Part shown: in pieces, positions 121 through 61,495 of the stretch | How positions within the stretch are numbered: position 1 is the stretch's first letter | Layout: each line of letters starts with the position of its first letter | DNA from: an uncultured virus (IMG/VR IMGVR_UViG_3300044613_002297) | Lineage: Duplodnaviria; Heunggongvirae; Uroviricota; Caudoviricetes | Strand: one strand, 5' to 3' | DNA length: 64,000 nucleotides | Virus record (IMG/VR): IMGVR_UViG_3300044613_002297 | Made by a program: the position numbers and the translations under genes | The notes under the pieces: model-generated | What the model was told of the DNA's origin: nothing | What the model saw: only the letters and a program-made list of their open reading frames with translations | The model's database searches: none

Positions 121-176
121 GGCGAACACGCAGGATAAGCGGCGGCTTCGCCGTCCGCTTCATCCGCTGGTTCTAT
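121..176 (-). repeat. attC-like integron cassette recombination site
   Basis: Minus strand: R'' ATAGAAC, 5 bp, L'' GATGAAGC, stem-loop GGACGGC-GAA-GCCGCC, L' GCTTATC, 6 bp, R' GTTCGCC; two extrahelical bases. Confidence 0.88.
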
Positions 177-207
177 TTTTCGAGGAGTAGTTTAGGTGGT
201 GCAGAAC

Positions 208-453
208 ATGAGCGAGAACGCTCAAGGCCCGCGTTCGAGTCGCGGCTCCTCGATTCGGAAGGCAGACCGGCAACGGATGGCACGGTTGGATCGTGGGATT
301 GCTTGGCTTGATGCTCGGCTGGCGAGCGTGCTGGTGTGGTTCGACAAGAAGGAATACGCCAGACTTGACACGAAGAGGGCGAAGATGGATCGGCAGCGGA
401 AAGAACTTCGGCTCCGCATGAAGGGGACGAAGGCGGTCTGGAAGAACAAATAG
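208..453 (+). CDS. Cassette-borne basic hypothetical protein (cassette 127-455)
   Basis: ORF lies between attC and the attI-like site; its TAG stop is inside the ATAGAAC box. Homologue at 50411-50656. Confidence 0.7.
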   Translation: MSENAQGPRSSRGSSIRKADRQRMARLDRGIAWLDARLASVLVWFDKKEYARLDTKRAKMDRQRKELRLRMKGTKAVWKNK

Positions 454-502
454 AACTTGTGTTTCTACAGTCCGTGTATCACGCCGCTTCCGTATATCAC
501 GC
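450..502 (-). promoter_or_regulatory. attI-like site with two direct repeats
   Basis: Minus strand GTAGAAA-CACAA-G|TTCTAT (L box, 5 bp, R box), preceded by 14-bp direct repeats at 471-484 and 489-502. Confidence 0.72.
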
Positions 503-606
503 CCCACTCATACGGGAAACTCAGCGCAAAACGACTGATTGCCAATATGAACTGGAAGCGCCGCCCCTAACTGCAAGGCCACTAGCCTCGCGTGCCATGA
601 TCGGGC

Positions 607-13866: not shown

Positions 13867-13882
<16 letters not shown>
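12956..13882 (+). CDS. fcl: GDP-L-fucose synthase
   Basis: [40 protein letters not shown] and KPDGQPRR motifs. Confidence 0.95.
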
Positions 13883-14835
<953 letters not shown>

Positions 14836-33659: not shown

Positions 33660-33695
33660 CAACCTATCCACCATGAACGCAGGAGGACGGGTGCC

Positions 33696-37625: not shown

Positions 37626-38774
37626 CTACGCCGCATCCCCCTGCCCGGCGATCCACCCGTCGAGGAGCCCCCGGCTAAACGCCGCCACGTCCTCGGGCTC
37701 GATGCCCGCAGCCGCTGCCAGGGCGTCGTGCTGAGCCCGTGGCGGGCAGGCGAGCCCTCGGGCGGCCATCGACCGCCCGACCACCGCACCGGCTTCTACG
37801 GGGCCGCTGGACGCCCGTGCAGGCGTGGGCGGCTTCGGGGCCGGTGGCGGGGCTGGGCGGGCCGCACGTCGCTCGCTGGGGAGCTTGGGGAGGAGGTCGA
37901 GCGGGTCGTCGCGGCGCACGATTTCGTCGATGAGGTAGTGCGTCCTGGTCGTCTTGCTGTCCGAGTGCGACAGGAATTCGGTAGCATCCCCGCCCCCGGC
38001 GGCGACGAACGAACCGGATGTCTTGCGGATCGAATGGAAGCCACGGCAGGGAACGCCAGCACGGCGGCAGATCTGCTTGAGCGATCCCCACAGGGACTCA
38101 AACTCGCGGTGCTCGACCCACGGCCACACGAGGTCGTCGTCGTTGCGGCGGTGCTTGGCGAGCAACCGAGCGAGCTCGGGCGTGATGCTGCGGATGATCG
38201 TCTTCACGCCGCCCTTCCTCCCCGCGCCGTCGAACAAGACGCGGCGGGTCTCAAGATCTACATCACGCCATCGCACCGACATGAGCCCGCCGATCCGCTC
38301 GCCGGTCTGCCACGCGCACATTAGGAGCGACCGAAAGAGCCACCATGCCGGGACCGGGCCGACGCTGCCACGGTAGGACAGCGCCGCCTTGAGCATCGCG
38401 TCGATCTCGTCGAGCGAGTATCCGCGAGGAGGGCGGATGGACACCTTGACCAACCCTCGCGGGAGGTCTGGGTGCTCGATCAGCGTGCCATCGCTGCGGG
38501 TCATCCGTTTTTTTGCAGCGTGAGCCCAGAGCGTGACGACGCTCGTGAGGTCTTTCTTCACCGTGGCCGGTCGTGGCGGCTTGCCACGCCAGTGCGGCGT
38601 CTCTGCTCGCCACCGCGAGAACTGAGCGATTGCCGTGTCGTCGAGGTCGTCGAGCGTTGATGGACGCCCGAGCCATTCCTCAAACCGATCGAGCGACGTG
38701 GCGAACAGTTTGACGGTGCGATCCTTGAGCGCGTGCCTCACGGCGTAGATCTTGAGCAGGTCGCGGAGTGTCAT
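37626..38774 (-). CDS. int: Phage tyrosine integrase
   Basis: TGERIG (R), RKGG (K), FHSIRK (HxxR), LSH and HY catalytic residues. Confidence 0.93.
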   Translation of the reverse strand: MTLRDLLKIYAVRHALKDRTVKLFATSLDRFEEWLGRPSTLDDLDDTAIAQFSRWRAETPHWRGKPPRPATVKKDLTSVVTLWAHAAKKRMTRSDGTLIEHPDLPRGLVKVSIRPPRGYSLDEIDAMLKAALSYRGSVGPVPAWWLFRSLLMCAWQTGERIGGLMSVRWRDVDLETRRVLFDGAGRKGGVKTIIRSITPELARLLAKHRRNDDDLVWPWVEHREFESLWGSLKQICRRAGVPCRGFHSIRKTSGSFVAAGGGDATEFLSHSDSKTTRTHYLIDEIVRRDDPLDLLPKLPSERRAARPAPPPAPKPPTPARASSGPVEAGAVVGRSMAARGLACPPRAQHDALAAAAGIEPEDVAAFSRGLLDGWIAGQGDAA

Positions 38775-46886: not shown

Positions 46887-47522
46887 ATGGCAAAGCGCAA
46901 GGTATCCAAGTCGCCAGCCAAGTCAGGCAAGGGCGAACTGCGTCGCCGCGTGCGGGCGTTTATCGAGGACGGCTCTCTGGCCCGCCTGGGTAGCGAGGGG
47001 CGTCTCGTGGCTCACTACGTCTTTGAGCGGGCCGATTGGTCTACCGGCGAGATCCGGTTCTCCATGCGGCACGTCGCGCGGGTGATGAAGGTGAGCCCGA
47101 CGGCTATTCGCAGGGGCGTCGAGCAGATGGTCCGCGAGGAAATCCTGGCAATCTCGGCAAAAAGAGAAGGCTCCGGTCGGTCGAAATACACGGTCGTGGG
47201 GCGCACACACAGTGTGTCCACCCCGGACACGCCTTGTGCGCAGGCGCGCACACACAGTGTGTCCGGGGTGGACACACCTCGTGTCCAGAGCGCGCACACA
47301 GTGTGTCCGGAGCGCGCACACAGTGTGTCCGGAGCGCGCACGCCTTGTGACCACTATTCAGTCTTATTCAGTGGTATTCCAGTAAATACCACTGAAATAA
47401 CCAATGCGGCTGACGCCACGGACGGTGAAGGACCGTCCGAGCCTCAGCCGCAGCCAGAGTTTTCGAGAGGTTGCGCCGCCGCTCTTGCACGCACAGGCAC
47501 ACTTACGGAGGAGTCGCCATGA
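46887..47522 (+). CDS. Winged-HTH replication initiator with internal iterons
   Basis: N-terminal HTH followed by an internal repeat block. Confidence 0.7.
   Translation: MAKRKVSKSPAKSGKGELRRRVRAFIEDGSLARLGSEGRLVAHYVFERADWSTGEIRFSMRHVARVMKVSPTAIRRGVEQMVREEILAISAKREGSGRSKYTVVGRTHSVSTPDTPCAQARTHSVSGVDTPRVQSAHTVCPERAHSVSGARTPCDHYSVLFSGIPVNTTEITNAADATDGEGPSEPQPQPEFSRGCAAALARTGTLTEESP
47201..47402. repeat. Iteron array plus AT-rich tract (probable phage origin)
   Basis: Four CACACAGTGTGTCC copies and degenerate variants, then TATTCAGTCTTATTCAGT...TAAATACCACTGAAATAA. Confidence 0.75.
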
Positions 47523-48101: not shown

Positions 48102-49223
48102 ATGACGACGGCAACGGCTACGAAGCGGCGAAGGAGTACTGGCATCACGCTACCGGCCGCCACGCTGAAGACAGCGCTCGCGGACGTGTCCGCAGCGGTG
48201 CCGACGCGACCGGCGAAGCCAGTGCTCGCGTGCATCCGAATTGGCGATGGCACACTCACGGCGACTGACCTCGAACTCCAGATCGCTGTCGAGATCGACT
48301 ACCACGGCGAGCCGCTACTCCTGCCGTTCGCCCGGCTGCGTGCGATCCTCGCCGAGGCTCGTGCCGAGGAGGTGACGATCACGCCTGACGGCACGTCGTG
48401 CGTCGTGACGGCCGGGCGTGGCACGTGGCGGCTTCCGGTCGAGAGCGCTGACGAGTGGCCGACATGGCAGCACGAGCCGCTCAGAACGCTCGTGCGAGTC
48501 CCGTGCGATCAATTCGCCCGTGCCGTGAAGGGCTGCGTCTACGCGACGGATAACGACAGCAGTCGCTACGCACTCGGTGCGGTGCTCATTGAGGTGCTCG
48601 GCGGCGACTGCTCGTTCGTGGCGACCGACGGGCGTCGGCTCTCGCACGTGGCGGTCGAGCACGACCAAGCGGTGGACGACGGTTCGGCGCTCGTCCCGGC
48701 TCGGGTGCTCGCATCGCTCGCGAGCGTGGCGGCTCGAGGCGACGACGCGGTGCAACTCGAGGCGAGCGAGCACGAGCTCGTCGCCACGCTGCCGGGGTGC
48801 GTCGTGACGGCCAGGCAGATCGCCGGGCGTTTCCCCCGCTGGCGTGACGTGCTGCCGAAGGACCGCGAGGGTGCGATCGAGACGGTGGTCGATCGCGACG
48901 AGCTCATCGCTGCGACCAGGGCGGCGGCGATCGTCACCAGCGAGCAGTCGAAGGGCGTGGATTTCACGTTCTCGGCCGACGGCGTGACGCTTCACGGGCA
49001 GTCGAGCGAGTACGGGCAGAGTGACGTGACGATCGAGGTCGTCAGCGGCGGCGACCCGGTCAAGGTGAAGCTCGATCCCGTGTTCGTCGTCGAGTGGCTC
49101 CGTGGCATCGCGACGGACGAGGGGCCGCACATCACGGTCGAGCTCGTGGACGCGCAGTCCGCGTGCGTGCTCCGCAACGGCGGCGTCTACACCGGCGTCA
49201 TCATGCCGCTCTCGAACGACTGA
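48102..49223 (+). CDS. dnaN: DNA polymerase III beta sliding clamp
   Basis: ATDLE, SRYALGAV, VATDGRRL, GRFPRW..V and VIMP C-terminal motifs. Confidence 0.92.
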   Translation: MTTATATKRRRSTGITLPAATLKTALADVSAAVPTRPAKPVLACIRIGDGTLTATDLELQIAVEIDYHGEPLLLPFARLRAILAEARAEEVTITPDGTSCVVTAGRGTWRLPVESADEWPTWQHEPLRTLVRVPCDQFARAVKGCVYATDNDSSRYALGAVLIEVLGGDCSFVATDGRRLSHVAVEHDQAVDDGSALVPARVLASLASVAARGDDAVQLEASEHELVATLPGCVVTARQIAGRFPRWRDVLPKDREGAIETVVDRDELIAATRAAAIVTSEQSKGVDFTFSADGVTLHGQSSEYGQSDVTIEVVSGGDPVKVKLDPVFVVEWLRGIATDEGPHITVELVDAQSACVLRNGGVYTGVIMPLSND

Positions 49224-49234
49224 GGAGGTGCAAC

Positions 49235-49579
49235 ATGGGACACCGCAGGATCACCGACGCTGCCCTGCTCTTTCGGCTCTGGCACGACGAGACGCTTCGT
49301 GTCGAAGACATCGCTGATCGGCTGCGCGTCACGCCGAACACCGTGACACGCACGGCACAGCGTTTCGGGCTCGCGAACCGCAACCGTGTCGTGAGCGAGA
49401 TCCGCGAGCGTAAGGCGATCGAGGCGGTCGAGGACGACTCGACTGTCGTCGATCTTCGTCTCGACGCCTGGACCGAAGAGCGGGCCAGGCCGATCCGCGA
49501 GGGCTGGAGCGAGGAGGTTCGGTACGAGCGGCGCGCCCAGAAAGTTCAGCCGATCTGCTACGGCGGGGTGTTCGGATGA
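49235..49579 (+). CDS. HTH protein
   Basis: LW....VEDIADRLRVT..TV...A.RFGL. Confidence 0.65.
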   Translation: MGHRRITDAALLFRLWHDETLRVEDIADRLRVTPNTVTRTAQRFGLANRNRVVSEIRERKAIEAVEDDSTVVDLRLDAWTEERARPIREGWSEEVRYERRAQKVQPICYGGVFG

Positions 49580-49719
49580 GCGCACCGCTCCTCTTCCTCG
49601 TCTCGCTGATCTACTGGGGCGTCGCGATCGAGCAGTGGTGGAAGGGCAGCCCTGCCGGGTTCGTCGTTTGGGCGAGCTACGGAATGGCGAACTGGGGACT
49701 GATGTGGATGACGAGGTGA
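49576..49719 (+). CDS. Small membrane protein (47 aa)
   Basis: MSAPLLFLVSLIYWGVAIEQWWKG...; ATGA and GTGA coupling on both sides. Confidence 0.6.
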   Translation: MSAPLLFLVSLIYWGVAIEQWWKGSPAGFVVWASYGMANWGLMWMTR

Positions 49720-49952
49720 CCGTGACCGACATCGTGACACGCCTGCGCCGGTGGACGCACGCGGTGGACGCTGCGCCCGCGAGCGACTTGATGGACGAGG
49801 CGGCGGATGAGATTGAGCGTCTGCGGCTTACAGACGAGGAGCGTGAGGCGATTAAGGCTGGCATCTCAGCCTGCGAAGACATCGTCTACGGCGGTGCTAC
49901 CGACCAAGAGGCGGCGGACACCATGCGGCGGTTGTTGGATCGGTTGAAGTGA
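49716..49952 (+). CDS. Phage hypothetical protein (DIVTRLR...EAADEIERLR family)
   Basis: Common phage motif; its TGA stop lies in the terminal TGAGAAC box of the cassette array. Confidence 0.7.
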   Translation: MTVTDIVTRLRRWTHAVDAAPASDLMDEAADEIERLRLTDEEREAIKAGISACEDIVYGGATDQEAADTMRRLLDRLK

Positions 49953-50005
49953 GAACGCGCAGGATAAGCGGCGGCCTCGCCGTCCGCTTCATCCGCTGGT
50001 TCTGT
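49950..50005 (-). repeat. attC-like site
   Basis: Minus strand: ACAGAAC-CAGCG-GATGAAGC-GGACGGC-GAG-GCCGCC-GCTTATC-CTGCGC-GTTCTCA. Confidence 0.88.
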
Positions 50006-50030
50006 GAGCGTAGAGAAACGAGGTGAAGCG

Positions 50031-50321
50031 ATGAACGATCCGATTGCAGACAGCAAGCCATACGCGACGTTTGTCTTCAACCATGAAGGCGAGCAGTACG
50101 TCATGCGACAGGACTACGAGCGGCTGCGGGCGATGCTCACTTGGGTTCCAGTTGAGGAGCGGCTTCCTGACCAAGTAGATGATGTTGTTGTCTGGCACCC
50201 AAGCAGGATCGGCACAGGCTGGGCGTGGTATGACGGCGACGGCAAGTGGTTCAGCGGAGACTATGAGGTGTTGGTTTCGCACTGGATGCCGTTTCCGGCA
50301 CCGCCAACGGACGGCAAGTAG
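50031..50321 (+). CDS. Cassette-borne DUF551-like protein (cassette 49956-50329)
   Basis: WVPVEERLP...VSHWMPFPAPP motif; own GAGGTG RBS; bounded by two attC sites. Confidence 0.8.
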   Translation: MNDPIADSKPYATFVFNHEGEQYVMRQDYERLRAMLTWVPVEERLPDQVDDVVVWHPSRIGTGWAWYDGDGKWFSGDYEVLVSHWMPFPAPPTDGK

Positions 50322-50323
50322 CC

Positions 50324-50379
50324 ACAGAACGCACAGGATAAGCGGCGGCTCTGCCGTCCGCTTCATCCGCTGGTTCTAT
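50324..50379 (-). repeat. attC-like site
   Basis: Minus strand: ATAGAAC-CAGCG-GATGAAGC-GGACGGC-AGA-GCCGCC-GCTTATC-CTGTGC-GTTCTGT. Confidence 0.88.
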
Positions 50380-50410
50380 TTTTCGAGGGGTAGTTTAGGT
50401 GGTGCAGAAC

Positions 50411-50656
50411 ATGAGCGAGAACGCTCAAGGCCCGCGTTCGAGTCGCGGCTCCTCGATTCGGAAATCAGACCGGCAACGGATGGCACGGTTGGATCGTGGG
50501 ATTGCTTGGCTGGACGCTCGGATGGCAAGCGTGCTGGTGTGGTTCGACAAGAAGGAATACGCCAGACTCGACACGAAGCGGGCGTCGATGGATCGGCAGC
50601 GGAAAGAACTTCGGCTCCGCATGAAGGGGACGAAGGCGGTCGGGAAGAACAAATAG
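50411..50656 (+). CDS. Cassette-borne basic hypothetical protein (cassette 50330-50658)
   Basis: Homologue of 208-453. Confidence 0.7.
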   Translation: MSENAQGPRSSRGSSIRKSDRQRMARLDRGIAWLDARMASVLVWFDKKEYARLDTKRASMDRQRKELRLRMKGTKAVGKNK

Positions 50657-50705
50657 AACTTGTGTTTCTACTGTCCGCGTATCACGCCGCTTCCGTGTAT
50701 CACGC
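50653..50705 (-). promoter_or_regulatory. attI-like site with two direct repeats
   Basis: Minus strand GCGTGATACACGGA-AGCG-GCGTGATACGCGGA-CA-GTAGAAA-CACAA-G|TTCTAT. Confidence 0.72.
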
Positions 50706-50744
50706 TAACTGCAAGGCCACTAGCCTCGCGTGCCATGATCGGGC

Positions 50745-51536
50745 ATGCGACTCTTGGCGACGCTCATCGCCGTGTCGGCCCTCGCGGCATCCGCCGCCAC
50801 GATCGATGACTCAAAAGGCGACAGCCGATACCTCGACTACGGTGCGACGTTCGCGGGATACGTCGTGCGGGTCACCGGAAACAACGCCGAAGGCGTTCCG
50901 CTCGCGGGCTCTGGCACGCTCATATCGCCGCACTGGGTGCTCACGGCGGCACACGTCCCGCACGAGATGACGGCGGTGACCGTCGTGCTCGGCGGCGAGC
51001 GTCTCGCGTGCGACCGTGTCGTGCGGCATCCCGAATGGGAAGGCGTCCACGGCTGGCACGACATCGCCTTGGTGCGGCTCGGACAGCACAGGCACGCAGA
51101 CGTGTACCCGATGCTCGCTGACGGCACCGAGCGGCTCGGCAGCGTCGCTGCCGCTGCGGGGTATGGCATGACGGGCACGCTCACTCGCGGGCTTACGGGA
51201 GGCGACCAGCGGCTGCGGGCGGGGACTTGCGTCCTCGGGTCGATCGAGCACGGCGTGTACGTCTGCCCGATTCGCAGGACGCCCGACGCTGGCCCGCTCC
51301 CTGCGTGCATCGCGCCGGGCGACTCAGGCGGCCCGCTCTGGGCAACTGCGATCGACGGCAGCACGCGGCTCGTCGGCGTGAACTCCTACGTCGCGAGGGT
51401 CGGCGGGAAGACGCGGTACGTCCTCGGCGAGGAGTCGGGGCACACCCGCGTGGTGCTCTACCTCGACTGGATTCGCAGCGTTGTCGGCGAACTTGACTCG
51501 CCATGCACGATGCCGGGATGCCAACCGCCACGCTGA
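50745..51536 (+). CDS. Trypsin-like serine protease (copy 2)
   Basis: Homologue of 607-1398. Confidence 0.92.
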   Translation: MRLLATLIAVSALAASAATIDDSKGDSRYLDYGATFAGYVVRVTGNNAEGVPLAGSGTLISPHWVLTAAHVPHEMTAVTVVLGGERLACDRVVRHPEWEGVHGWHDIALVRLGQHRHADVYPMLADGTERLGSVAAAAGYGMTGTLTRGLTGGDQRLRAGTCVLGSIEHGVYVCPIRRTPDAGPLPACIAPGDSGGPLWATAIDGSTRLVGVNSYVARVGGKTRYVLGEESGHTRVVLYLDWIRSVVGELDSPCTMPGCQPPR

Positions 51537-51735
51537 GATTCCGCCTGCCCGAGGACGAGGGCGAGTTCCGCGACTGCGTTGAGGGCTCGCGGGCGAAGTC
51601 GATCGTCATCCTGCTCGATGACCACCTCGCCACCGAGATCAAGGCTGGCGAGCTCGGCCACGATGTCGAGGTGGCGTACCAAGAGCTCCGCGAGTGGCTG
51701 CGGAGTCAGTGTGCGGAGCACGGGCTCGATCTGCT

Positions 51736-52134
51736 GTGACCATCACGCTCTCAATCCCCGGCGATCCGGTGCCGCAACCGCGCCCGCGAGTGTCAACGCA
51801 GGGCGGGTTCGCTCGCGCGTACGTACCGAAGAGCCATCCAGTTCACGCCTACCGACAGGCGATCGCATTAGCGGCAAGCGTCGCCGGGCTCCGCGAGCAG
51901 GCGAAACCCGTGAGCGTCGTCATCGACGCCGTGTTCGCCCGGCCCAAGTCGCACATGAACAAAGCAGGCGTGAAGCCAACCGCACCGGCGTTGCCGCGAC
52001 CCGACGTGGACAACCTGGGCAAGGCGGTCCTTGACGCGCTTCAGGACGTGATGGGCGACGACACGCACGTCGCACGGCTCGTCGTCGAGAAATCGTGGGG
52101 CACAGAAGGTCGCACGACGGTGCGGATCACATGA
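51736..52134 (+). CDS. rusA: RusA-family resolvase (copy 2)
   Basis: Homologue of 1598-1996. Confidence 0.88.
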   Translation: MTITLSIPGDPVPQPRPRVSTQGGFARAYVPKSHPVHAYRQAIALAASVAGLREQAKPVSVVIDAVFARPKSHMNKAGVKPTAPALPRPDVDNLGKAVLDALQDVMGDDTHVARLVVEKSWGTEGRTTVRIT

Positions 52135-52727
52135 GCGTCGCGATCTTCACGAGCGCGGGTGTCGGAACGCCGTGGGCAGAACTCACGGTGGCGAACCGTC
52201 TCGCGTACTGCGTGCGGCACGACTACACGATGGTGTGGCGGTGCGAGGCGTACTCGCAGGCGTTGTCGAACTTCTGGCGGATCGGGCAACTGCTCGAGCA
52301 TCACGACCTCGTGTGGACGCTCGATGCCGACTGCGTCATCACGAACCTGACGACCCGGATCGAGGACGTGCCCGATCTCGGGCCGCACATGACGATCTGC
52401 GAGGAGGGTATCGGCGCGCACGCCCTGGTGAACGGCGGGTCGATCGTGTGGCGTGCAACTCAAGGCACGCATTCACTTCTCGACGAGATCGTCGCCGCAG
52501 AGAACGAGTGGCGATCGATGGAATGGAACGTCCAGCAGTGGCTGATGAAGCACCGCGAGCGGCTGGCGGATCGCATGACGATCGCGCCGAAGCGGGCTTT
52601 CAACTCTGTTCATCTCGGACAGACGAACCACTGGCAGCACGGCGACCTCGTCTACCACCCGTGCGGCAATCCGCCCGACATCCGATGCGAGTTGATCCGC
52701 GAGCACCTAGGGCGGGTGGTGACATGA
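52131..52727 (+). CDS. Glycosyltransferase (copy 2)
   Basis: Homologue of 1993-2589. Confidence 0.75.
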   Translation: MSVAIFTSAGVGTPWAELTVANRLAYCVRHDYTMVWRCEAYSQALSNFWRIGQLLEHHDLVWTLDADCVITNLTTRIEDVPDLGPHMTICEEGIGAHALVNGGSIVWRATQGTHSLLDEIVAAENEWRSMEWNVQQWLMKHRERLADRMTIAPKRAFNSVHLGQTNHWQHGDLVYHPCGNPPDIRCELIREHLGRVVT

Positions 52728-53293
52728 GCTATGAGTTCACGCACGATTGGTTCTCGATGCGTACGAACGCATGGCGTGAGCACGTGTTGCCACGCCTGCC
52801 GCACCCGCGCCGCTGGCTGGAAATCGGCTCGCACGAGGGCCGCTCGGCGTGTTGGATGCTCGATGAGGCGCTGAAGCCCGGCGACACGATCACGTGCGTC
52901 GATACGTGGGGCGGCCCCTTCGACGGGTACTCGGCTGAGAATCCCGAGGCGCGGTTCGACGCGAACGTCGCGGGTCGTGCCGAGAAGTTTCGCGGACGCT
53001 CGCACGTGTTCCTCGCCCGCGCTCTCGCCGAGCATCGGCTCTTCGATGGCATCTACATCGACGGCGGGCACGAGGGCCGCACGGTGCTAGAAGACACGGT
53101 GCTCGCGTGGCGGCTGCTCAAGGTCGGTTCTGTCATCGTCTGGGACGACTACGAATGGCGTGACCCGCATCCGCACCGGCAGCACCTGCCGACGCCGAAG
53201 CCTGCGATCGATGCGTTCCTCGCGCTCTACGGTCAATACCTCGACGTGCTGCACCGTGAGTGGCAAGTCATCGCCGTGAAGCGGGGCGAGTGA
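52724..53293 (+). CDS. SAM-dependent methyltransferase (copy 2)
   Basis: Homologue of 2586-3155. Confidence 0.88.
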   Translation: MSYEFTHDWFSMRTNAWREHVLPRLPHPRRWLEIGSHEGRSACWMLDEALKPGDTITCVDTWGGPFDGYSAENPEARFDANVAGRAEKFRGRSHVFLARALAEHRLFDGIYIDGGHEGRTVLEDTVLAWRLLKVGSVIVWDDYEWRDPHPHRQHLPTPKPAIDAFLALYGQYLDVLHREWQVIAVKRGE

Positions 53294-53899
53294 ATGGACA
53301 TCTACGCGATCACGACCAGCGTCAACTACGCGGACTACCTGTCGATTTGTCTCAACTGCCTCGCCGGGCAGGTATCCGGCGTCTGCGTTGTCACCGAGGC
53401 GAATGACGCGAGCGTGGACGTGGCGCAGCGATTCGAGGCGACGCCGCTGATCTATGACGGGTGGCACGCTGACGGCGCTGCGTTCAATAAAGCGGGCGCG
53501 ATCCGGTTCGCACAGGAGCACCTACACGCCGCGTACCCGGATGCGTGGTATCTGCTGATCGACGCCGACGTGATGGTCCCGACGAACGCTCGCGAGATCA
53601 TCGAGCAGGACGCGACGAATCCCGAGACGCTCTACGGTGCGCGGCGGGTCGATTTCCACACGCCCGAGCGGCTCATGGAGGGCAAGCCGAACAAGGCATA
53701 CGCCTCGATGTTCGCCGGATTCTTTCAGCTCTACCGGCGGCACGTGCTGTACCCGGAGTGGTCACGCACGGCCGAGCTCTGTGACCTGTCGTTCGCGAAG
53801 CAGTTCGCGTCGTGCGTCGTGCTGCCGATGACGGTCGGTCACTGCGGCGTCGAGGCGGTCAACTGGGAGGGGCGGCGATCGCCGCTCTGGAAATGCTGA
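53294..53899 (+). CDS. Glycosyltransferase (copy 2)
   Basis: Homologue of 3156-3761. Confidence 0.75.
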   Translation: MDIYAITTSVNYADYLSICLNCLAGQVSGVCVVTEANDASVDVAQRFEATPLIYDGWHADGAAFNKAGAIRFAQEHLHAAYPDAWYLLIDADVMVPTNAREIIEQDATNPETLYGARRVDFHTPERLMEGKPNKAYASMFAGFFQLYRRHVLYPEWSRTAELCDLSFAKQFASCVVLPMTVGHCGVEAVNWEGRRSPLWKC

Positions 53900-54666
53900 C
53901 GCTCTTCACGCTCGTCTTGAACGGGCAGCCGTACATCGAGCAGCACCTCGCGACGCTGCGCCAGCTCACGATCCCGTGGCAGTGGCGGATCGTCGAGGGC
54001 GTCGCGGCACCGACGCACTGCACCGCGTGGTGCCAGACGATGCCCGACAAGTGGCACCGGGACTTCGTCAGCGTGGACGGGACGCACGAGTACGTGCGAG
54101 CAGTAAACAACACGCCGAACGTCACCTGCTCGTGGAGGCACTCACCGTGGGACGGCAAGATCGCGATGATCGCTCGCGCCCTCGAAGGCGTCGAGGGCGG
54201 CGTCGTCATGCAGGTTGACAGCGACGAGCTCTGGCAGGCGTGGCAGTTGGAGCGGATCTACTGGCTGATGCTCCAGCAACCGGTGGCGACGGCCGCACGG
54301 TTCGCGTGTCGTTACTGGGTCGGACCGTCGAAGCTCCTGACGAGCACGGCGGGATGGGCACGCGGCGACCTTGAGTGGCTGCGAGCGTGGCGTTGGGGAC
54401 CGGGCATGCGGTTCCTCCGACACGAGCCGCCGATCGTTACCGGGTTTGACCGGTGTGTGAGCATCGAAAGCACCGAAGCGGCGGGGCTCGTGTTCGATCA
54501 CTACGCGTACGTGACCGAGCAGCAGATCGCGATGAAGCAGGACTACTACGGGTACACGGGACTGACCGAGGCGTGGCATCGGCTCCAGGCGACGCCGGGG
54601 CCGGTGAACCTCCAAGAGTTCTTCCCGTTTGCGATCGGTGCGACGGCGGATGACGTGGGGATATGA
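53893..54666 (+). CDS. GT2-like glycosyltransferase (copy 2)
   Basis: Homologue of 3755-4528. Confidence 0.75.
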   Translation: MLTLFTLVLNGQPYIEQHLATLRQLTIPWQWRIVEGVAAPTHCTAWCQTMPDKWHRDFVSVDGTHEYVRAVNNTPNVTCSWRHSPWDGKIAMIARALEGVEGGVVMQVDSDELWQAWQLERIYWLMLQQPVATAARFACRYWVGPSKLLTSTAGWARGDLEWLRAWRWGPGMRFLRHEPPIVTGFDRCVSIESTEAAGLVFDHYAYVTEQQIAMKQDYYGYTGLTEAWHRLQATPGPVNLQEFFPFAIGATADDVGI

Positions 54667-54669
54667 CGC

Positions 54670-54936
54670 ATGGTTGCTCAAGCGATCGACAATCGGCGAC
54701 ACGCAGCGGATGTCTACGGCACGCCAGATGGTCGGCGGTGGGTGCAGCAGGAGGACTACGAAGCACTCATGGCGAAAGCGACCGTGAGCTTTGATGAATG
54801 GGAGGCGATGGAAGGTATCGCTAACGTGATAAAGCGTCTCTTGGAAATTCAAAACGGACTGACAAACGAAGAGCTTGCGACCGTAGGTAGGTGGCTGGAG
54901 GCGTGGCGCGCAATGCTGAACAGGCTCAACTCGTGA
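54670..54936 (+). CDS. Hypothetical protein at a variable locus
   Basis: Occupies the position of 4525-4809 but is unrelated to it. Confidence 0.55.
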   Translation: MVAQAIDNRRHAADVYGTPDGRRWVQQEDYEALMAKATVSFDEWEAMEGIANVIKRLLEIQNGLTNEELATVGRWLEAWRAMLNRLNS

Positions 54937-55805
54937 CGACCTTCACCATCACCGCCGCCGACTTCGAGGCTCACCGCCCCGACGTGTTGCTCCCGCCTGA
55001 CGAGGAGTTCGCGGAGCAGTACGCCGCCGACGTTCGCATCGGTCGCGAGCTCGCCGCTGAGCGGACGGTGGCCCTGGTTGCCATCGCTCGCAATGCCATG
55101 CCCTGGCTCCCGCAGACGCTCGGGCTCGTAGAGGAGACGGGTGCGATGTTCCGCTCGTGGTCGGCGTACATCTTCGAGAACGACTCGGAAGACGAGACAA
55201 AGGACGTGCTCGCGGCATGGGCCGACGGCACGCAGCGGCAGGTCTCGCTCAACGTCAACCATCGGCCGCACCTCTCGCACACGATCGCCACCGAGCGGAC
55301 GACCGCGCTCGCGGAGTACCGCACGCAGTGCCAGTGGTGGGTGAGGAACGGCGAGCCGTGCGACTATGTCGTGGTCTTTGATTCCGACAGTTGGGGCGGG
55401 TGGAGCGTCAATGGATTGCTCACGAGCGTGGCGCATATCGAGCGAGGCGATTGGTGGGGGCTGGCTTCGCACTCCTGGTGCGAACTCAGTACGCCGCACG
55501 GGGCATTCCCGGCCGGATACGATGCGTGGGCTTGCCGGTGGACATGGTGGAACCAGCGGTCTCACGATTGGTTTCATCACCTGCACTTGCCTGTCGGCTC
55601 TCTCCCGGTCGAGATGAACTCAGCATTCGGGCAGCTCGCCCTCTACCGCTCGGACGCCTACCTTCGTGGGCGATACTCGGGCGAGACGTGCGAGCACGTT
55701 CCATACCACAAGTCGATCGCCGAACATGCCGACACGCGAGGTCGATTTGGGCTGAACCCTTCGAGTCGCGTTGTGAGTTTCTGGGTTCCGCGTGAACGCT
55801 TGTGA
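54933..55805 (+). CDS. Glycosyltransferase-like protein (copy 2, divergent C-terminal half)
   Basis: Homologue of 4810-5670. Confidence 0.72.
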   Translation: MTTFTITAADFEAHRPDVLLPPDEEFAEQYAADVRIGRELAAERTVALVAIARNAMPWLPQTLGLVEETGAMFRSWSAYIFENDSEDETKDVLAAWADGTQRQVSLNVNHRPHLSHTIATERTTALAEYRTQCQWWVRNGEPCDYVVVFDSDSWGGWSVNGLLTSVAHIERGDWWGLASHSWCELSTPHGAFPAGYDAWACRWTWWNQRSHDWFHHLHLPVGSLPVEMNSAFGQLALYRSDAYLRGRYSGETCEHVPYHKSIAEHADTRGRFGLNPSSRVVSFWVPRERL

Positions 55806-55897
55806 TCCGGCTGTAGAGGGGGTACACTAAGCGAAACGGCGACGGGGTATCAGCCCGCCGCCGCCTCTAACCAACGTCCCCTACTGACATAGGAGAG

Positions 55898-56665
55898 ATG
55901 GCTATGGCTGACTCTACACAGCCGGGCGAAGAAGGAAAGGACATCCAGAACGCTAAGGCAAAAAAGCGAGAGTCAGACAGGAAGTACTACCTCGCAAACC
56001 GCGACGCAATCCTTCGCAAGTGCAAGGAGTACCGCGAGCGACACAGGCAAGAGTACCTAGTCAGTAACAAACGGTACTACGAGTCGAATAAGGCTGCGTT
56101 CTCGCAACGGAGCAAATCGCCAGAAGGGCGCGTCGTTCAAAAAAGGTATCGCGAAAACAACAAAGAAAAACTCAGGGACAGGCATCGCGAGTGGAGGCAA
56201 GGCAATCGTGAGCATCTCAGGGCGTACAAGAAGCGACGCCGTCAGGAAAACCCGCATTTAGCACTGATCAACAGAATCCGCTGCCGTACGTGGGGTGCGA
56301 TAAAAACAGCAAATGCTCGCAAGAGCGCGCGAACCTTGGAGCTAGTGGGGTGCACCGCGAAAGAGCTTGCTGAGTGGATCGAATCCAAGTTCACTGATGG
56401 CATGTGCTGGGCGAGAATTGGAGAGATACACGTAGACCACTTGATTCCTCTGTCTGCGTTTGATCTCTCCGATCCAGAGCAGCAGGCGGTTGCCTTTCAC
56501 TTCACAAACCTTCGGCCAATGTGGGATATAGAGAACTTGAGAAAGAGCGATCGGATCTTTGGCCAGCAATGCTTCGGATTTGCTTACGCCGATAGGATCG
56601 CCGAGGCCGCATCGGCGAAACCCAAGAGACGACGCAAGCGTGGCGGGCGACACGGCGACCATTGA
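55898..56665 (+). CDS. Free-standing HNH homing-endonuclease-like protein
   Basis: Lys/Arg-rich Y...N repeats, LVGCT...L..WIE..F..GM.W, HVDHLIPLS.FDL and HFTNLRPMW..ENLRKSD; absent from copy 1. Confidence 0.85.
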   Translation: MAMADSTQPGEEGKDIQNAKAKKRESDRKYYLANRDAILRKCKEYRERHRQEYLVSNKRYYESNKAAFSQRSKSPEGRVVQKRYRENNKEKLRDRHREWRQGNREHLRAYKKRRRQENPHLALINRIRCRTWGAIKTANARKSARTLELVGCTAKELAEWIESKFTDGMCWARIGEIHVDHLIPLSAFDLSDPEQQAVAFHFTNLRPMWDIENLRKSDRIFGQQCFGFAYADRIAEAASAKPKRRRKRGGRHGDH

Positions 56666-57035
56666 CGTTGCATTCCTGCGTGAGCAATGGGCGTCGCACA
56701 TCCCCATCTCGCAGATTTGCACGAACTTCACCATCACTCGTGACCAAGTCACGCGGCTGAAGTTCGTATATGACCTGCCTCCCCGCCACGATCGATCGCT
56801 CCGCTACAAGCCGCCCCGTGATCCCGGCCCCGATGACGAGGAGGAGCGGGCGAGCCGCGAGAGCCTGTCGCTAGCTCCGCAGATCGCCGCCCGTGCGACG
56901 TGCGTGCAAGCGCTCTGGACCGAGCAGCAACGCCTCGATCGCACGATGGCGACGACGCCGAGCGAGGGGATGCTCAGGTGGATCAAGGCGAAGGACATCG
57001 TCCAGAGGTTCGCCAAGGACGAACTGCAAGGCTAG
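56640..57035 (+). CDS. HTH-like protein (copy 2)
   Basis: Homologue of 5645-6040 with a divergent N-terminus. Confidence 0.6.
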   Translation: MAGDTATIDVAFLREQWASHIPISQICTNFTITRDQVTRLKFVYDLPPRHDRSLRYKPPRDPGPDDEEERASRESLSLAPQIAARATCVQALWTEQQRLDRTMATTPSEGMLRWIKAKDIVQRFAKDELQG

Positions 57036-57079
57036 GGGGGCGCGGTGGCAGACTCGTGGAATCCCCCGGAGATCGTGCT

Positions 57080-57385
57080 ATGGACGCCCGCGAGCTCGGT
57101 GCCACGCCCGACGAGATCACGCAGTACGGCGCGACGCTGTCGTTCTGGGACGCACTGCGCCTGCTCCAGAAGTATTCGCCGGTCGTGAACTACGCCCGTG
57201 CGTTCGTCTCGGAGATCGACCCGTACAAGAAGGGGCTCGTCGTCGCCGATGCGTGCGAGTGGATCGCTCAGCAGACCGACGCGCGGCTTGACGACGAGCT
57301 CGTGAGGCACGTCGCGGCGGTGCTGAAGACTGCCGAGGGCGAGGCGCTCGTCCGGTTCTGCCTGTTCCAGGTCGGGGTGAAGTGA
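57080..57385 (+). CDS. Hypothetical protein (copy 2)
   Basis: Homologue of 6085-6390. Confidence 0.7.
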   Translation: MDARELGATPDEITQYGATLSFWDALRLLQKYSPVVNYARAFVSEIDPYKKGLVVADACEWIAQQTDARLDDELVRHVAAVLKTAEGEALVRFCLFQVGVK

Positions 57386-57386
57386 G

Positions 57387-57989
57387 ATGGGGACCGATGC
57401 ACTCCTACGCATCCTCGCCGTCGCTGCTGCGGTTGCTCTGCTCGCTGCGCCGTACGCATGGCAAATCCGCGCTGCGGCCGCCGCAGCCGCCGAAGCCGTC
57501 AGGCAGCACAGCGGGATCATCGGGCGTCTGATCGCCGCGAGCCTGCTCATCGCGGCAGCGTGGGGCAAGGTGCCGATGCCGACGCTGCCGACGCCCGAGG
57601 CCCAGGTCGTGATCGAGGTCGAGGAGCCCACGCCGGAACTACGGCGGCTCGTCGAACCCGTCAGGGCCGCCCTCGCGTCGGCGTCGATGCGTGACCGTGC
57701 GATCTGGGCTGAGACGTGGATGAAGTCAGGCGTCGTCGTCGCGGCCGACAACGTCCACTCGACGCCCGTACTCGCGGACGTGCGGGCTCTGCGTGCGTTC
57801 CAGGTCGTCGCTCTCGACGTGGCGTGGCGTCGCATCGCTGGCGTCGCGCCCGGCCGGTATCCGGGGCTCAAGGACGGCGTCGAGGCTGCGTTCGCCGAGG
57901 TGCTCGGTCTCGATGACGTGACGGTCGATGCGTCGCTGCGTGAGCGGTACGTGGCTCTCGTGCGTGCTCTGGCGTGGGCTGCGAGGTGA
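57387..57989 (+). CDS. Membrane-anchored protein (copy 2)
   Basis: Homologue of 6392-6994. Confidence 0.7.
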   Translation: MGTDALLRILAVAAAVALLAAPYAWQIRAAAAAAAEAVRQHSGIIGRLIAASLLIAAAWGKVPMPTLPTPEAQVVIEVEEPTPELRRLVEPVRAALASASMRDRAIWAETWMKSGVVVAADNVHSTPVLADVRALRAFQVVALDVAWRRIAGVAPGRYPGLKDGVEAAFAEVLGLDDVTVDASLRERYVALVRALAWAAR

Positions 57990-57992
57990 CCC

Positions 57993-58925
57993 GTGGCACT
58001 CGACGCTCACGCATTCGGGTACGATCCCGATCCGGTTGGTGCCGAGGCGTTCGCCTCGACGCTTCCGCGTCCGACGCTCGCCCAGGCGGGGCCGGATCTC
58101 GTCGTTGACGGCAAGACCGAGACGCACCTCTGGCCCGCCCTGCTCCAGTGCTCGCCCGGCTGGAAGCGTGGCTCGCAGGGAATGGTGGGCTCGTGCGTCG
58201 GCTGGGGCGCGAGCCTCGCGGTGGATCTCACGAGCGCGTGCGACATCGTCTACCGACGCGAGCCCGAGGTCTGGCGTGGCCGCACGATCGAAAGTTCTCT
58301 GTACGGGTTCTCTCGCGTCGAGGCTCGCGGCAAGACCGTGAACAACGGCGGCGACGGGTCTACGGGATTCCATGCTGCGAAGGCGATCCGCGAGTTCGGG
58401 TGCCTGCACTACGGCGTCGAGTACGGCTCGGTCGTCATCGCCGAGAGCGGCAAGCAAGATCGCGATCGCTCGTGGGGAAGAAACGGCGTACCGAATGAGC
58501 TCGAGCCCTACGCCCGCGAGCGGCGGTGCTCCGAGGTGACGCTCACCGTGGACTTCGAGCAGGCGGCAGCGGCGATCCAGAATGGCTACCCGGTCGTGGT
58601 GTGCAGCGGTCAAGGGTTCTCGATGTCCCGCGATGCCGACGGGTTCTGCAAGCCAGGCGGGACGTGGTGGCACTGTATGTGCCTGGCTGCGGTGAGGTGG
58701 GGCAAGCGTCCCGGTCTGCTCTGCCTCAACTCGTGGGGCGACTCGAACACCGTCGGCAAGCACTACCCGGAGAACATGCCGACGGCGGTGCGGAATTGCT
58801 CGTTCTACGTCGATGCCGAGGTCTGCACCCGGATGCTCTCTGGTCGCGACTCCTACGTCTACGCCGGATACAGCGGGTTCCGCCGCACGCAGATCCCCAA
58901 CTGGACCGGAGACATCCTCGGATGA
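57993..58925 (+). CDS. Papain-like cysteine protease (copy 2)
   Basis: Homologue of 6998-7930. Confidence 0.88.
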   Translation: MALDAHAFGYDPDPVGAEAFASTLPRPTLAQAGPDLVVDGKTETHLWPALLQCSPGWKRGSQGMVGSCVGWGASLAVDLTSACDIVYRREPEVWRGRTIESSLYGFSRVEARGKTVNNGGDGSTGFHAAKAIREFGCLHYGVEYGSVVIAESGKQDRDRSWGRNGVPNELEPYARERRCSEVTLTVDFEQAAAAIQNGYPVVVCSGQGFSMSRDADGFCKPGGTWWHCMCLAAVRWGKRPGLLCLNSWGDSNTVGKHYPENMPTAVRNCSFYVDAEVCTRMLSGRDSYVYAGYSGFRRTQIPNWTGDILG

Positions 58926-59176
58926 GATCGCTCGTCGCTTTTGCCATCGTGCTCGTGGGCTGCGTGGCGTCACTGCCGCGTGACGATGCCGCGATCACTG
59001 CGGACCTCGCAGCCGAGACGGCACGCGAGGTGATCCGCCTGCGTCACGAGGTCGCACCGACGCCGGTGCCGCCAGCGCCGGGCGGCAAGTGCCAGAACTG
59101 CGACGGGCGTGGGTACGTCGGTGACGGGAGGGTTCGTGTCCCGTGTCAGCCGTGCGGTGGAGACGGAGTCCTATGA
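58922..59176 (+). CDS. Zinc-finger lipoprotein (copy 2)
   Basis: Homologue of 7927-8181. Confidence 0.7.
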   Translation: MRSLVAFAIVLVGCVASLPRDDAAITADLAAETAREVIRLRHEVAPTPVPPAPGGKCQNCDGRGYVGDGRVRVPCQPCGGDGVL

Positions 59177-59532
59177 CCCGCGACGAGCTCTACGAGCACG
59201 TGTGGAAGCGACTCCCCATGCGAAAGTACATGGTAGGGAGAGAGACCGTTCACGACCTGACGACGCTGGCGATCGAGAACTGGGAGGCCGAGTACCTCGG
59301 CCACGCCGAGAGCGAGGAGGGCCGCGATATCGTCGCGATGTCGATCGCCGGGAAGGTGAAGCGAGCACACCAGTGGCAGAGCGGTCGCGAGCCGCAGGAG
59401 TACGGCTTTTTCTGGACGCTGATGCTCGGTGCGATCGTCAATGCGATCGTGCAGATCATCGTGAAGTGGTGGCTCGAACGTCAGGTGAACCGCGTGCTGA
59501 TGGTGGCGTGGCAGCAGGAGTTGACTCGATGA
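59173..59532 (+). CDS. Membrane protein (copy 2)
   Basis: Homologue of 8178-8537. Confidence 0.65.
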   Translation: MTRDELYEHVWKRLPMRKYMVGRETVHDLTTLAIENWEAEYLGHAESEEGRDIVAMSIAGKVKRAHQWQSGREPQEYGFFWTLMLGAIVNAIVQIIVKWWLERQVNRVLMVAWQQELTR

Positions 59533-59798: not shown

Positions 59799-59799
59799 C

Positions 59800-60413: not shown

Positions 60414-60415
60414 TC

Positions 60416-61492: not shown

Positions 61493-61495
61493 CGT

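What the first reader, a model, noticed from the sequence alone, without database searches (positions are those of the whole stretch)
49950..50705. Phage-borne integron platform (attI-like site plus attC cassettes) with no integron integrase
Seen: two 56-bp minus-strand sites with attC geometry: R'' 7 bp, 5-bp spacer, 8-bp L'' GATGAAGC, short stem-loop, 7-bp L' GCTTATC, 6-bp spacer, R' GTT. Each has an extrahelical base in L'' and a second one just after it. Each site's R'' mismatches its own R' but matches the R' at the other end of the same cassette (CACAGAAC/GTTCTGTG for the 374-bp cassette; AAATAGAAC/GTTCTATTT for the 329-bp cassette). Known: that reciprocal match is the scar left when circular cassettes integrate at G|TT. 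The array ends in an attI-like site, and no IntI is evident in the 50-kb unit. Inference: the phage carries a cassette-capture site serviced in trans, probably by a host IntI, and uses it to gain and shuffle accessory genes.
Basis: partly seen in the sequence, partly recalled or inferred. Interest (0 to 1): 0.95.

Follow-up and report, generated by a model that had tools for sequence, protein, structure and literature searches.

The report
Integron cassette array inside a phage
A lake-water phage keeps two small accessory genes as integron-type movable cassettes next to a docking site but has no integron integrase of its own, and many related phages swap different cassettes at the same spot.

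Summary
The window has three copies of a 48-56 nt imperfect palindrome (121-176, 49950-50005, 50324-50379). They bound cassettes of 374 and 329 bp, and each cassette has its own 8-9 nt inverted ends.

The sites share the geometry of real attC sites of class 1 integrons fetched here: AAC, 6 nt, 7-nt L box, variable loop, 8-nt L box with an extra base at position 5, 5 nt, GTT. They match on the equivalent of the recombined strand. A covariance model built only from phage sites hits the aadA5 attC (E 3e-4) and sites upstream of intI in other integrons.

Related viral contigs carry arrays of up to 7 cassettes:
- End complementarity of at least 7 nt runs across cassettes in 104 of 124 cases, against 25 of 185 within a site.
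- Arrays end at AAC followed by a conserved attI-like sequence.
- Cargo is diverse, 77 protein families.

No IntI was found in 0 of 98 site-bearing viral records. The window's only tyrosine recombinase is not IntI. One metagenome contig links this attC family to an IntI gene, so supply of the enzyme in trans is plausible but unproven.

CALINs in phages are already published (Qi et al. 2023), and this scan noted the same family before on other DNA (e1-6263945). Apparently new here: a conserved attI-like site without intI, reversed gene orientation, and start codons inside attC.

The parts
121..176 (+). attC site, copy A (AAC 125-127, GTT 170-172). It heads the second copy of the 329-bp cassette.
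   Evidence: R1 65.5 bits on + against 10.8 on -.
127..455 (+). 329-bp cassette, copy A, with an ORF at 196-453 (85 aa, no family).
   Evidence: GTTCTATTT and AAATAGAAC ends.
457..567 (+). attI-like end site, copy A: TTGTGTTTCTAC..., two CGTRTATCACGC repeats at 473-484 and 491-502, then about 65 extra bases absent from copy B.
49635..49952 (+). Left neighbour gene (probable start 49716), ending ...AAGTGAGAAC. Genes with this same ending are bounded cassettes in other contigs (e.g. L046). No site lies upstream of it in the window.
49950..50005 (+). attC site B1 (AAC 49954-56, L box 49963-69 with 49986-93, bulged C at 49985 and 49990, GTT 49999-50001).
   Evidence: R1 72.1 bits, E 3.5e-16.
49956..50329 (+). 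374-bp cassette 1: attC B1 plus a DUF551 gene (ATG 50031 to 50321).
   Evidence: (PF04448, E 1.4e-9).
50324..50379 (+). attC site B2 (AAC 50328-30, GTT 50373-75).
   Evidence: R1 69.8 bits.
50330..50658 (+). 329-bp cassette 2: attC B2 plus an 81-85 aa ORF (50399 or 50411 to 50656, no family). ARAGORN calls an odd tRNA-like stretch at 50383-50457.
50660..50705 (+). attI-like end site directly after AAC 50657-59: TTGTGTTTCTACTGTCCG, then direct repeats at 50676-50687 and 50694-50705. No hairpin predicted.
   Evidence: (z -0.55 and -0.35). Compared with attI1.
50745..51536 (+). Right neighbour: secreted trypsin-like protease, in the position where intI sits in class 1 integrons. It is not a recombinase.
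   Evidence: PF00089, E 2e-14. Layout compared.
37626..38774 (-). The phage's only tyrosine recombinase, an ordinary phage-type integrase and not IntI.
   Evidence: best Xer-like 35.9 bits; no TIGR02249 hit; phrog_1.

Best explanation
The region is a genuine integron-type cassette array carried by a temperate, siphovirus-like phage of lake water. It has attC sites and an attI-like insertion site, which makes it a CALIN with a docking site.

Proposed mechanism:
- When the + strand is single-stranded, each site folds into the attC hairpin: R box AAC/GTT, unpaired spacers of 6 and 5 nt, and an L box with a flipped-out base.
- An integron integrase supplied in trans, by the host or by another element in the same cell, cuts at AA|C.
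- attC x attC recombination releases a circle made of the attC plus its gene.
- attC x attI recombination inserts circles at AAC|TTGT beside the protease gene.

Unlike classical cassettes, the genes lie on the folded strand, so each attC precedes its gene. In relatives with long attCs, the loop carries the ribosome-binding site and start codon, and the right arm encodes a shared N-terminal peptide. Each cassette therefore arrives ready for translation from phage read-through transcripts.

Shown: site structure, cassette scars, turnover among relatives, and absence of IntI in the phage. Inferred: the enzyme, the strand cut, and the expression logic.
For: 1. Geometry. A grammar derived from the phage sites matches 5 of 5 attCs of a class 1 array (L079) with 0 mismatches, only on the bottom strand and at the annotated cassette boundaries.

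2. Structure conservation. Of 175 sites found by anchors that do not require pairing, 157 have perfectly complementary variable L-box halves, in 9 types. The reverse strand and shuffles give 0 anchors. On 69 distinct sites, 95.4% of cells pair against 82.4% in shuffles, with 125 double-change cells against 30.6 (0 of 500 shuffles). This includes inner-stem pairs that were not used for site picking.

3. Cassette scars. Complementarity of at least 7 nt occurs between the right flank of a site and the left flank of the next in 104 of 124 pairs. Within a site it is 25 of 185, and in random pairs 799 of 5000. There are 43 distinct end words.

4. Reciprocal model. CM R1, built from phage sites only, scores the aadA5 attC at 26.1 bits, E 3e-4. 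It also places other true attCs on the right strand, but only at E 2-10. It finds 9 sites upstream of intI in 5 of 32 IntI-related viral loci.

5. attI-like end. Most of 58 array ends read AAC followed by YWGTNTTT... plus two ATAAC/ATCAC repeats. attI1 on the same strand reads AAC|TTTGTTTTAGGG...GCGTAAC...CCATAAC.

6. Turnover. Contigs from 4 lake runs show alternative neighbours breaking at 49949-49953, 50001, 50330-50331 and 50655, with depth peaks on the sites. 117 site pairs have the same right flank but a different left flank.

7. Crossover side. The spacer next to the left AAC follows the right-hand gene. It differs at rates 0.47 and 0.12 (positions 0 and 2) in same-right pairs, against 0.83 and 0.78 in same-left pairs. 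62 of 75 long sites contain the start of the right-hand ORF.

8. IntI link. In L282 an IntI C-terminus (TIGR02249, 87.7 bits over 65 aa) lies about 165 nt beyond AAC|TTGTTAATAGGG, at the end of an array with family-type attCs (R1 59.3 and 48.6 bits).

9. No IntI in the phages: 0 of 49 and 0 of 49 records over the cut-off.
Against: - No recombination was observed. In the four runs laid, no contig showed a precise loss of the 374-bp cassette (join of 49955 to 50330) or a circle junction. These were assembled contigs, not reads.
- The host is unknown, so a host IntI cannot be checked.
- The flipped-out L-box base is C here, but G in the class 1 attCs seen.
- Only one real attC reached E below 0.01 with R1 in the class 1 set.
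- IntegronFinder's own attC model could not be run.
- 14 of 15 near-complete site-bearing records carry one phage integrase of a shared family, so a phage enzyme is not excluded.
- Site picking for several counts required L-box pairing. (anchors) and the inner stem are the non-circular parts.
- The pair counts are not independent.
Confidence: 0.72

Rival explanations
1. The array is run by a phage enzyme, most likely the phage's own non-IntI tyrosine integrase moonlighting on folded sites. That would make it an autonomous phage cassette system rather than one serviced by a host IntI.
For: 14 of 15 near-complete site-bearing records encode exactly one PF00589 recombinase. 22 of 25 records tested carry a homologue of the window's integrase, most at 32-52% identity (one 25%, one the identical record). 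The cargo is phage-type and the attCs are very homogeneous. No IntI was found in 98 records. Earlier unchecked scan notes describe other phage arrays beside small Xer-type recombinases.
Against: The integrase lies 12 kb from the array and is an ordinary phrog_1 integrase. Only about 77 residues separate its catalytic Arg region from the HxxR motif (my reading), which leaves no room for the roughly 35-residue IntI domain that reads attC structure (Cury 2016, section read). Shared integrase ancestry is expected for related temperate phages anyway. G022, a 205-kb record rated 100% complete with at least 4 sites, has no PF00589 match. The site geometry is identical to IntI substrates.
Confidence: 0.14
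2. The conserved palindromes are only homology patches. Gene shuffling happens by homologous or single-strand-annealing recombination between them, for example through the phage's Sak4-like protein, as proposed for repeat-flanked modules in other phages.
For: The phage encodes a Sak4-like annealing protein and RusA. The cores are nearly identical over 40-50 nt. Loop and spacer variants are only loosely linked to either neighbour.
Against: Homology-driven exchange does not predict cassette-specific inverted ends that pair across the gene and not within a site. It does not predict arrays ending exactly at AAC plus a non-palindromic conserved site, strand-asymmetric bulges kept through compensatory changes, or identity of layout with real attCs.
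Confidence: 0.07
3. The array is a fossil: a piece of a bacterial integron picked up once by an ancestral phage and now inert, with differences among phages due to descent and deletion.
For: There is no integrase in cis. No excision junction was seen. The left neighbour gene looks like a cassette that has lost its site.
Against: 77 cargo families sit in 159 cassette units, with the same cassette next to different neighbours. Among 6 contigs sharing the near-identical window-type attI-like sequence, 4 different cassette ends abut it. Several alternative neighbours occur within single lake samples. The sites stay under strong structural constraint.
Confidence: 0.05
4. The hairpins act at the RNA level, as terminators or processing or stability sites between genes.
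For: They lie between genes on the transcribed strand and fold well.
Against: The scan found no terminator-like or promoter-like sites in 49000-51600. No Rfam family reached its gathering score. An RNA role does not explain pairing of ends across cassettes or the attI-like end.
Confidence: 0.02

Closest known systems
Clusters of attC sites lacking an integrase (CALIN) in phage genomes (Qi, Rajabal, Ghaly, Tetu, Gillings 2023, PMC9892861; abstract and section 3.4 read)
   Same: attC sites and cassettes in phage genomes without a nearby IntI. In that paper, 5 of 6 phage attCs tested were recombined by IntI1 into attI1.
   Different: That paper reports 17 CALINs in sequenced phages, with mixed layouts. 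Here a whole uncultured lineage shares one homogeneous attC family and a conserved attI-like end at a fixed place. Cargo is phage-type, genes are reversed relative to attC, and start codons sit inside long attCs. No similar DNA was found in 50,697 deposited phage records. Their supplementary tables were not opened.
attC sites of class 1 integron cassettes (aadA5, blaGES, aac(6')-Il; loci L224 and L079 fetched here)
   Same: Identical layout on the bottom strand: AAC, 6 nt, 7-nt box, loop, 8-nt box with an extra base at position 5, 5 nt, GTT. The aadA5 attC even shares AGCGGCGG...CCGTCCGCTT with the phage sites.
   Different: The extra L-box base is C, not G. The genes lie on the folded strand. 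The sites are far more uniform than in mobile integrons.
Sedentary chromosomal integrons with homogeneous attC sites (for example Vibrio; described in Cury et al. 2016, PMC4889954, introduction read)
   Same: Long arrays of small cassettes of mostly unknown function with very similar attCs, ending at one attI.
   Different: No intI beside attI. The carrier is a phage. Arrays are short: 2 cassettes in the window and up to 7 sites per fetched locus.
Integron on metagenome contig L282, with intI in the same direction as its cassettes (an 'inverted integrase' layout; that name is recalled, not read)
   Same: Same attC family (R1 59 bits; left arm GATCAGCGGCTCGCGACC as in phage sites). An AAC|TTGT... 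junction with a TATCAC motif.
   Different: It has an IntI gene next to attI, and its ORFs are in the classical orientation with attC after the gene.
Repeat-flanked mobile gene modules of T4-type phages (PeSL cassettes; recalled from memory, not read here)
   Same: Small phage accessory genes flanked by conserved stem-loops and shuffled among relatives.
   Different: Those are thought to move by homology at promoter-stem-loop repeats. They have no AAC/GTT boxes, no extrahelical bases and no attI.

Membership tests
Integron attC site | R''/R' boxes with conserved AAC ... GTT | tested here: met
   AAC and GTT are invariant in 69 of 69 distinct sites and in all three window sites.
Integron attC site | L''/L' boxes that pair, with an extrahelical base on one arm only | tested here: met
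   157 of 175 anchor-defined sites have perfectly complementary boxes, in 9 types. The extra base is always at position 5 of the 8-nt box, the same position as in L079 attCs. The base is C here and G there.
Integron attC site | Unpaired central spacers between the R and L boxes | tested here: met
   Internal loop of 6 and 5 nt in the folds. The same lengths occur in 5 of 5 L079 attCs.
Integron attC site | Variable terminal structure; conserved structure with variable sequence and length | tested here: met
   Loop classes of about 9, 16 and 49 nt. The inner stem covaries.
Integron attC site | Chimeric sites in arrays: each cassette's two ends are complementary | tested here: met
   104 of 124 across cassettes, against 25 of 185 within a site. 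In the window, 8 and 9 nt.
Integron attC site | Detected by the IntegronFinder attC covariance model | not testable with these tools
   The model is not held and Rfam has none. Surrogate test: a CM built from phage sites hits real attCs.
Integron attC site | Recombined by IntI at G|TT of the folded bottom strand | not testable with these tools
   This needs a bench assay. The contigs laid showed no excision junction.
Complete integron | intI gene with the IntI-specific domain next to attI | tested here: not met
   The window has no TIGR02249 hit. 0 of 98 related viral records are over the cut-off. The gene beside the attI-like site is a protease.
Complete integron | attI site at the array end where cassettes insert | tested here: inconclusive
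   A conserved, non-folding sequence follows the last AAC in most of 58 ends, with two direct repeats. It resembles the start of attI1 and the L282 junction. Its function is untested.
Complete integron | Pc promoter reading into the cassettes | tested here: not met
   No sigma-70-like site in 49000-51600. The ORFs face towards the attI-like end, so they cannot be transcribed from a promoter placed there. The consensus scan is crude.
CALIN | At least two attC sites with no integron integrase nearby (Cury 2016, read) | tested here: met
   Two adjacent sites at 49950-50379 and no IntI in 64 kb.
Intrinsic terminator or known RNA family | GC stem followed by a T run, or an Rfam match | tested here: not met

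The most novel reading that the evidence does not exclude
These lake phages run a phage-native cassette system. A large shared pool of ready-to-translate one-gene cassettes, with attCs that carry the ribosome-binding site, the start codon and a common leader peptide, is exchanged at a phage attI by a recombinase that is not a classical IntI encoded beside it. That enzyme could be the phage integrase or an enzyme borrowed from co-resident elements. On this reading, phages would be a major unrecognised reservoir, and perhaps a birthplace, of integron cassettes and of the aadA-like attC type.
Probability: 0.18. Interest if true: 0.85.

Novelty: new variant of a known kind. Interest (0 to 1): 0.68.

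Why it matters
Integrons are known as bacterial gene-capture devices, and only a handful of phage cases are in print.

These arrays sit in the accessory-gene region of temperate phages, and in two larger records of unresolved nature.

If IntI acts on them, phage genome mosaicism in this lineage is partly site-specific and enzyme-driven. Phages and bacterial integrons would then share a cassette pool, giving a direct route for cassette traffic between cells.

The reversed gene orientation and the start codons inside attC show that the attC scaffold can also serve as an expression signal. That bears on the open question of how cassettes are made.

Tried and rejected
- **Own genome:** not held, so neither the host genome nor the DNA upstream of window base 1 could be searched.
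- **Host identity:**
  - The genome scan gave only 5 MAG contigs of mixed taxa. Two are phage-like fragments. Three are unrelated hairpins without AAC/GTT.
  - IntI was over the cut-off in 2 of those 5 MAGs. This is not usable because binning of phage contigs is unreliable, and one of them, G004, is unpublished.
  - Atlas look-ups of the GDP-mannose dehydratase and the beta clamp gave no host.
  - No cultured-phage DNA relative was found. Portal homologues are all below 60% identity.
- **Rfam:** nothing relevant.
- **Link between integrase and attI-like site:** the repeat motif occurs no more often than chance elsewhere in the window, and not near the integrase.
- **Grammar near MAG IntI genes (L065, L066, L070):** no sites in those short loci.
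- **Excision evidence:** Logan contigs of 4 runs showed no exact 374-bp deletion or circle junction. The three 'skip' joints are divergent DUF551 cassettes, not deletions.
- **L259:** the recombinase next to a 4-site array is below the IntI cut-off (216 against 265 bits) and sits beside an IS91 transposase, so it does not count as IntI.
- **L243:** only a broken IntI N-terminal fragment.
- **IntI-bearing viral contigs:** these carry generic attCs (16-36 bits), not this family.
- **R1 hit at window 5632-5693(-):** 19.1 bits, E 0.016. It lies inside a gene and has no hit at the matching place in the second copy, so I treat it as chance.
- **G021:** the complete genome was fetched but not analysed further.
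- **Literature:** searches found no description of this phage lineage. One search failed on a bad term.

Full report
**What is in the window**

The window is phage DNA. It encodes terminase, portal, capsid and tail genes, one tyrosine integrase (37626-38774, minus strand), a Sak4-like annealing protein, a DnaB-type primase-helicase, a LexA-like repressor, a beta clamp and RusA.

Bases 1-13.8 kb repeat bases 50.2-64 kb at roughly 79-98% identity, so the window holds about 1.27 copies of a 50-51 kb unit. The window's own assembly is not held. The nearest record is a 37-kb IMG/VR contig.

**The observation**

It is correct in every detail that I could check.

- Sites B1 (49950-50005) and B2 (50324-50379) read on the + strand: AAC, 6 nt, GATAAGC, GGCGGC-loop-GCCGTC, C, GCTTCATC, 5 nt, GTT.
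- Both strands fold as predicted, with two single-base bulges on one arm. Energies are -16.2 to -17.7 kcal/mol, z -3.0 to -4.1.
- The ends of each cassette are complementary over 8 and 9 nt, while each site's own flanks pair only over AGAAC/GTTCT.
- The cassettes measure 374 and 329 bp.
- The core occurs 3 times against 0 expected. The third copy (121-176) heads a second copy of the 329-bp cassette. There its left neighbour is a different sequence, and the difference begins at GAAC.

**Is it an attC?**

I took the layout of the phage sites as a strict grammar and applied it to real class 1 integron arrays fetched from plasmids. In L079 it matched all 5 attCs with 0 mismatches, at the annotated cassette boundaries and only on the bottom strand. 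The extra base was at the same position of the 8-nt box. In L078 it found one probable attC, with one mismatch.

In the other direction, a covariance model (R1) built from 69 distinct phage sites gave these results:
- It scored the aadA5 attC at 26.1 bits (E 3e-4). That attC shares AGCGGCGG...CCGTCCGCTT with the phage sites.
- It placed eight or nine further true attCs correctly, but only at E 2-10.
- In IntI-related viral contigs it found 9 sites at E up to 0.01 in 5 of 32 loci. All are on the strand and side expected for an array upstream of intI (more).
- In the window it finds only the three sites: 65-72 bits on +, 11-20 bits on -. Near-identical cores were in the training set, so those high scores are partly by construction.

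**Structure conservation**

I used anchors that do not demand pairing (AAC-N6-GAT-N4 ... N4-CATC-N5-GTT). Of 175 sites, 157 have perfectly complementary N4 halves, in 9 types. No anchors were found on the reverse strand or in shuffles.

On the 69-site alignment:
- 95.4% of cells pair, against 82.4% in shuffles and at most 49% when partners are slid.
- Double changes number 125, against 30.6 in shuffles.
- Three inner-stem pairs that played no part in site picking also covary.
- A G·T pair is kept in 66 of 69 sites.

**Arrays in relatives**

- The exact core occurs in 57 viral stretches.
- Fetched loci hold up to 7 sites each, in three loop classes of about 9, 16 and 49 nt.
- Complementarity of at least 7 nt links the right flank of a site to the left flank of the next in 104 of 124 cases. 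Within a site it is 25 of 185, and in random pairs 799 of 5000.
- 159 cassette units have a median length of 355 bp.
- Their 133 distinct proteins fall into 77 families. Only 11 of 70 representatives hit Pfam: HTH_17, Dam, HAD hydrolase, DUF7448, crAss001_48, MUG113/T5orf172, zinc ribbons and others. The window's own cassette gene is DUF551.
- This cargo is phage-type accessory genes.

**Orientation**

The longest ORF lies on the folded (+) strand in 127 of 159 units, and 62 of 75 long sites contain the ORF start. The attC therefore precedes its gene, the reverse of class 1 cassettes and of the L282 integron.

The spacer beside the left AAC follows the right-hand gene rather than the left flank (the pairs are not independent). 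This fits a crossover at the left AA|C.

**The end site**

Most of the 58 array ends that are not followed by a picked site run from AAC straight into a conserved sequence, YWGTNTTT..., with two ATAAC/ATCAC repeats about 18 nt apart. The window version is 50660-50705. The rest are other end types or sites that my filter missed. The conserved end sequence is not predicted to fold.

attI1 on the same strand begins AAC|TTTGTTTTAGGG and carries GCGTAAC and CCATAAC boxes.

Among 6 contigs sharing the window-type end site, 4 different cassette ends abut it. In one lake run, 4 contigs differ just before 50655.

**Population data**

The region occurs in 24 lake or freshwater runs, all held as assembled contigs. 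In the four runs laid:
- Depth peaks about ten-fold on the two sites in two of the four runs and two- to three-fold in the other two.
- Loose ends show other neighbours breaking at 49949-49953, 50001, 50330-50331 and 50655.
- One of these alternative neighbours is the window's own copy-A sequence.
- No exact cassette deletion or circle junction was seen.

**The enzyme**

- No IntI lies in the window or in 0 of 49 plus 0 of 49 site-bearing viral records, 16 of which are at least 90% complete.
- The window integrase has only weak Xer-like similarity (35.9 bits). Its catalytic motifs are too closely spaced for the IntI-specific domain (domain as described in Cury 2016).
- Homologues of this integrase occur in 22 of 25 records tested, and 14 of 15 near-complete records have one PF00589 gene. 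A phage enzyme therefore cannot be excluded.
- A 205-kb record with at least 4 sites has no PF00589 gene. Whether it is a jumbo phage or host DNA is unresolved.

On metagenome contig L282, an IntI C-terminus (TIGR02249 87.7 bits over 65 aa, well above the Xer models) lies about 165 nt beyond an AAC|TTGTTAATAGGG junction. That junction ends an array whose attCs belong to this family (59.3 and 48.6 bits). Its ORFs are in the classical orientation. This shows that an IntI-linked integron uses the same attC family.

**What is known**

Qi et al. 2023 (PMC9892861; abstract and section 3.4 read) reported integrons and 17 CALINs in phages, and IntI1-mediated recombination of 5 of 6 phage attCs tested. 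The kind is therefore known. Their supplements were not opened.

My searches found no description of this lineage. No deposited phage record has similar DNA.

**Verdict**

It is a true attC cassette array with an attI-like end in a phage that lacks IntI. The enzyme and its source are inferred.

Noticed in passing
window 1-13800 and 50200-64000: The window holds about 1.27 copies of a 50-51 kb phage unit at 79-98% identity. This could be two related prophages in tandem, or an assembly that ran round a circular or variable population. Within the window the homology starts exactly at the attC site (124 matches 50327).
   Followed up: partly
window 47198-47353: Five overlapping copies of a 22/45-nt repeat (GCGCACACACAGTGTGTCC...) lie between the primase-helicase gene and the LexA-like gene. 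They look like iterons or operators of a replication origin (family D11).
   Followed up: no
window 50383-50457 and 180-254: ARAGORN calls a tRNA-like gene with an abnormal 2-base anticodon loop inside the 329-bp cassette, overlapping the start of its ORF. Rfam gave no tRNA hit.
   Followed up: no
window 503-567 versus 50705/50706: A roughly 65-bp insertion just after the attI-like repeats is present in copy A, L035 and L053 and absent in copy B and L036.
   Followed up: no
L062, L063, L064 (MAG contigs): Unrelated bacterial MAG contigs carry hairpins that share the 25 specified bases of the site core, both bulges included, but have GC-rich flanks instead of AAC/GTT. Their origin is unexplained. 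L063 is from an unpublished genome.
   Followed up: no
Alignment A1 columns 22 and 69; window 49971 with 49983: A G·T pair is kept in 66 of 69 sites, followed by a bulged C or T. This conserved non-Watson-Crick feature may be a recognition mark.
   Followed up: no
Long attC sites in relatives, e.g. L005:2981-3070, L004:589-678: Long attC loops carry GGAG plus ATG. The right arm is read as a shared N-terminal peptide (...SAASRGS...), so many unrelated cassette proteins begin alike.
   Followed up: partly
L282 (metagenome contig, 3379 nt): A partial integron with intI, attI and three cassettes all in one direction. Its attCs belong to the phage family.
   Followed up: partly
L021/G022 (205 kb) and L010/G012 (146 kb); also L115/G080 (154 kb): G022 and G012 carry type-1 attC arrays. 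In both, no tyrosine recombinase was detected and there is a divergent 1472-aa RNA polymerase beta-like ORF. They are possibly jumbo phages. G080 has the right-arm motif and a similar 1471-aa ORF; it was tested only for IntI, with none found.
   Followed up: partly
window 13708-14835 and 52095-53293: The phage carries a GDP-mannose 4,6-dehydratase, a glycosyltransferase-like gene and a methyltransferase. These are likely surface-sugar or DNA-modification accessory genes.
   Followed up: no
window 10661-10858: Three tandem 66-nt repeats lie inside a tail-fibre-like gene (family D13).
   Followed up: no
window 32001-34000: GC content drops to 0.56, against about 0.65 elsewhere.
   Followed up: no
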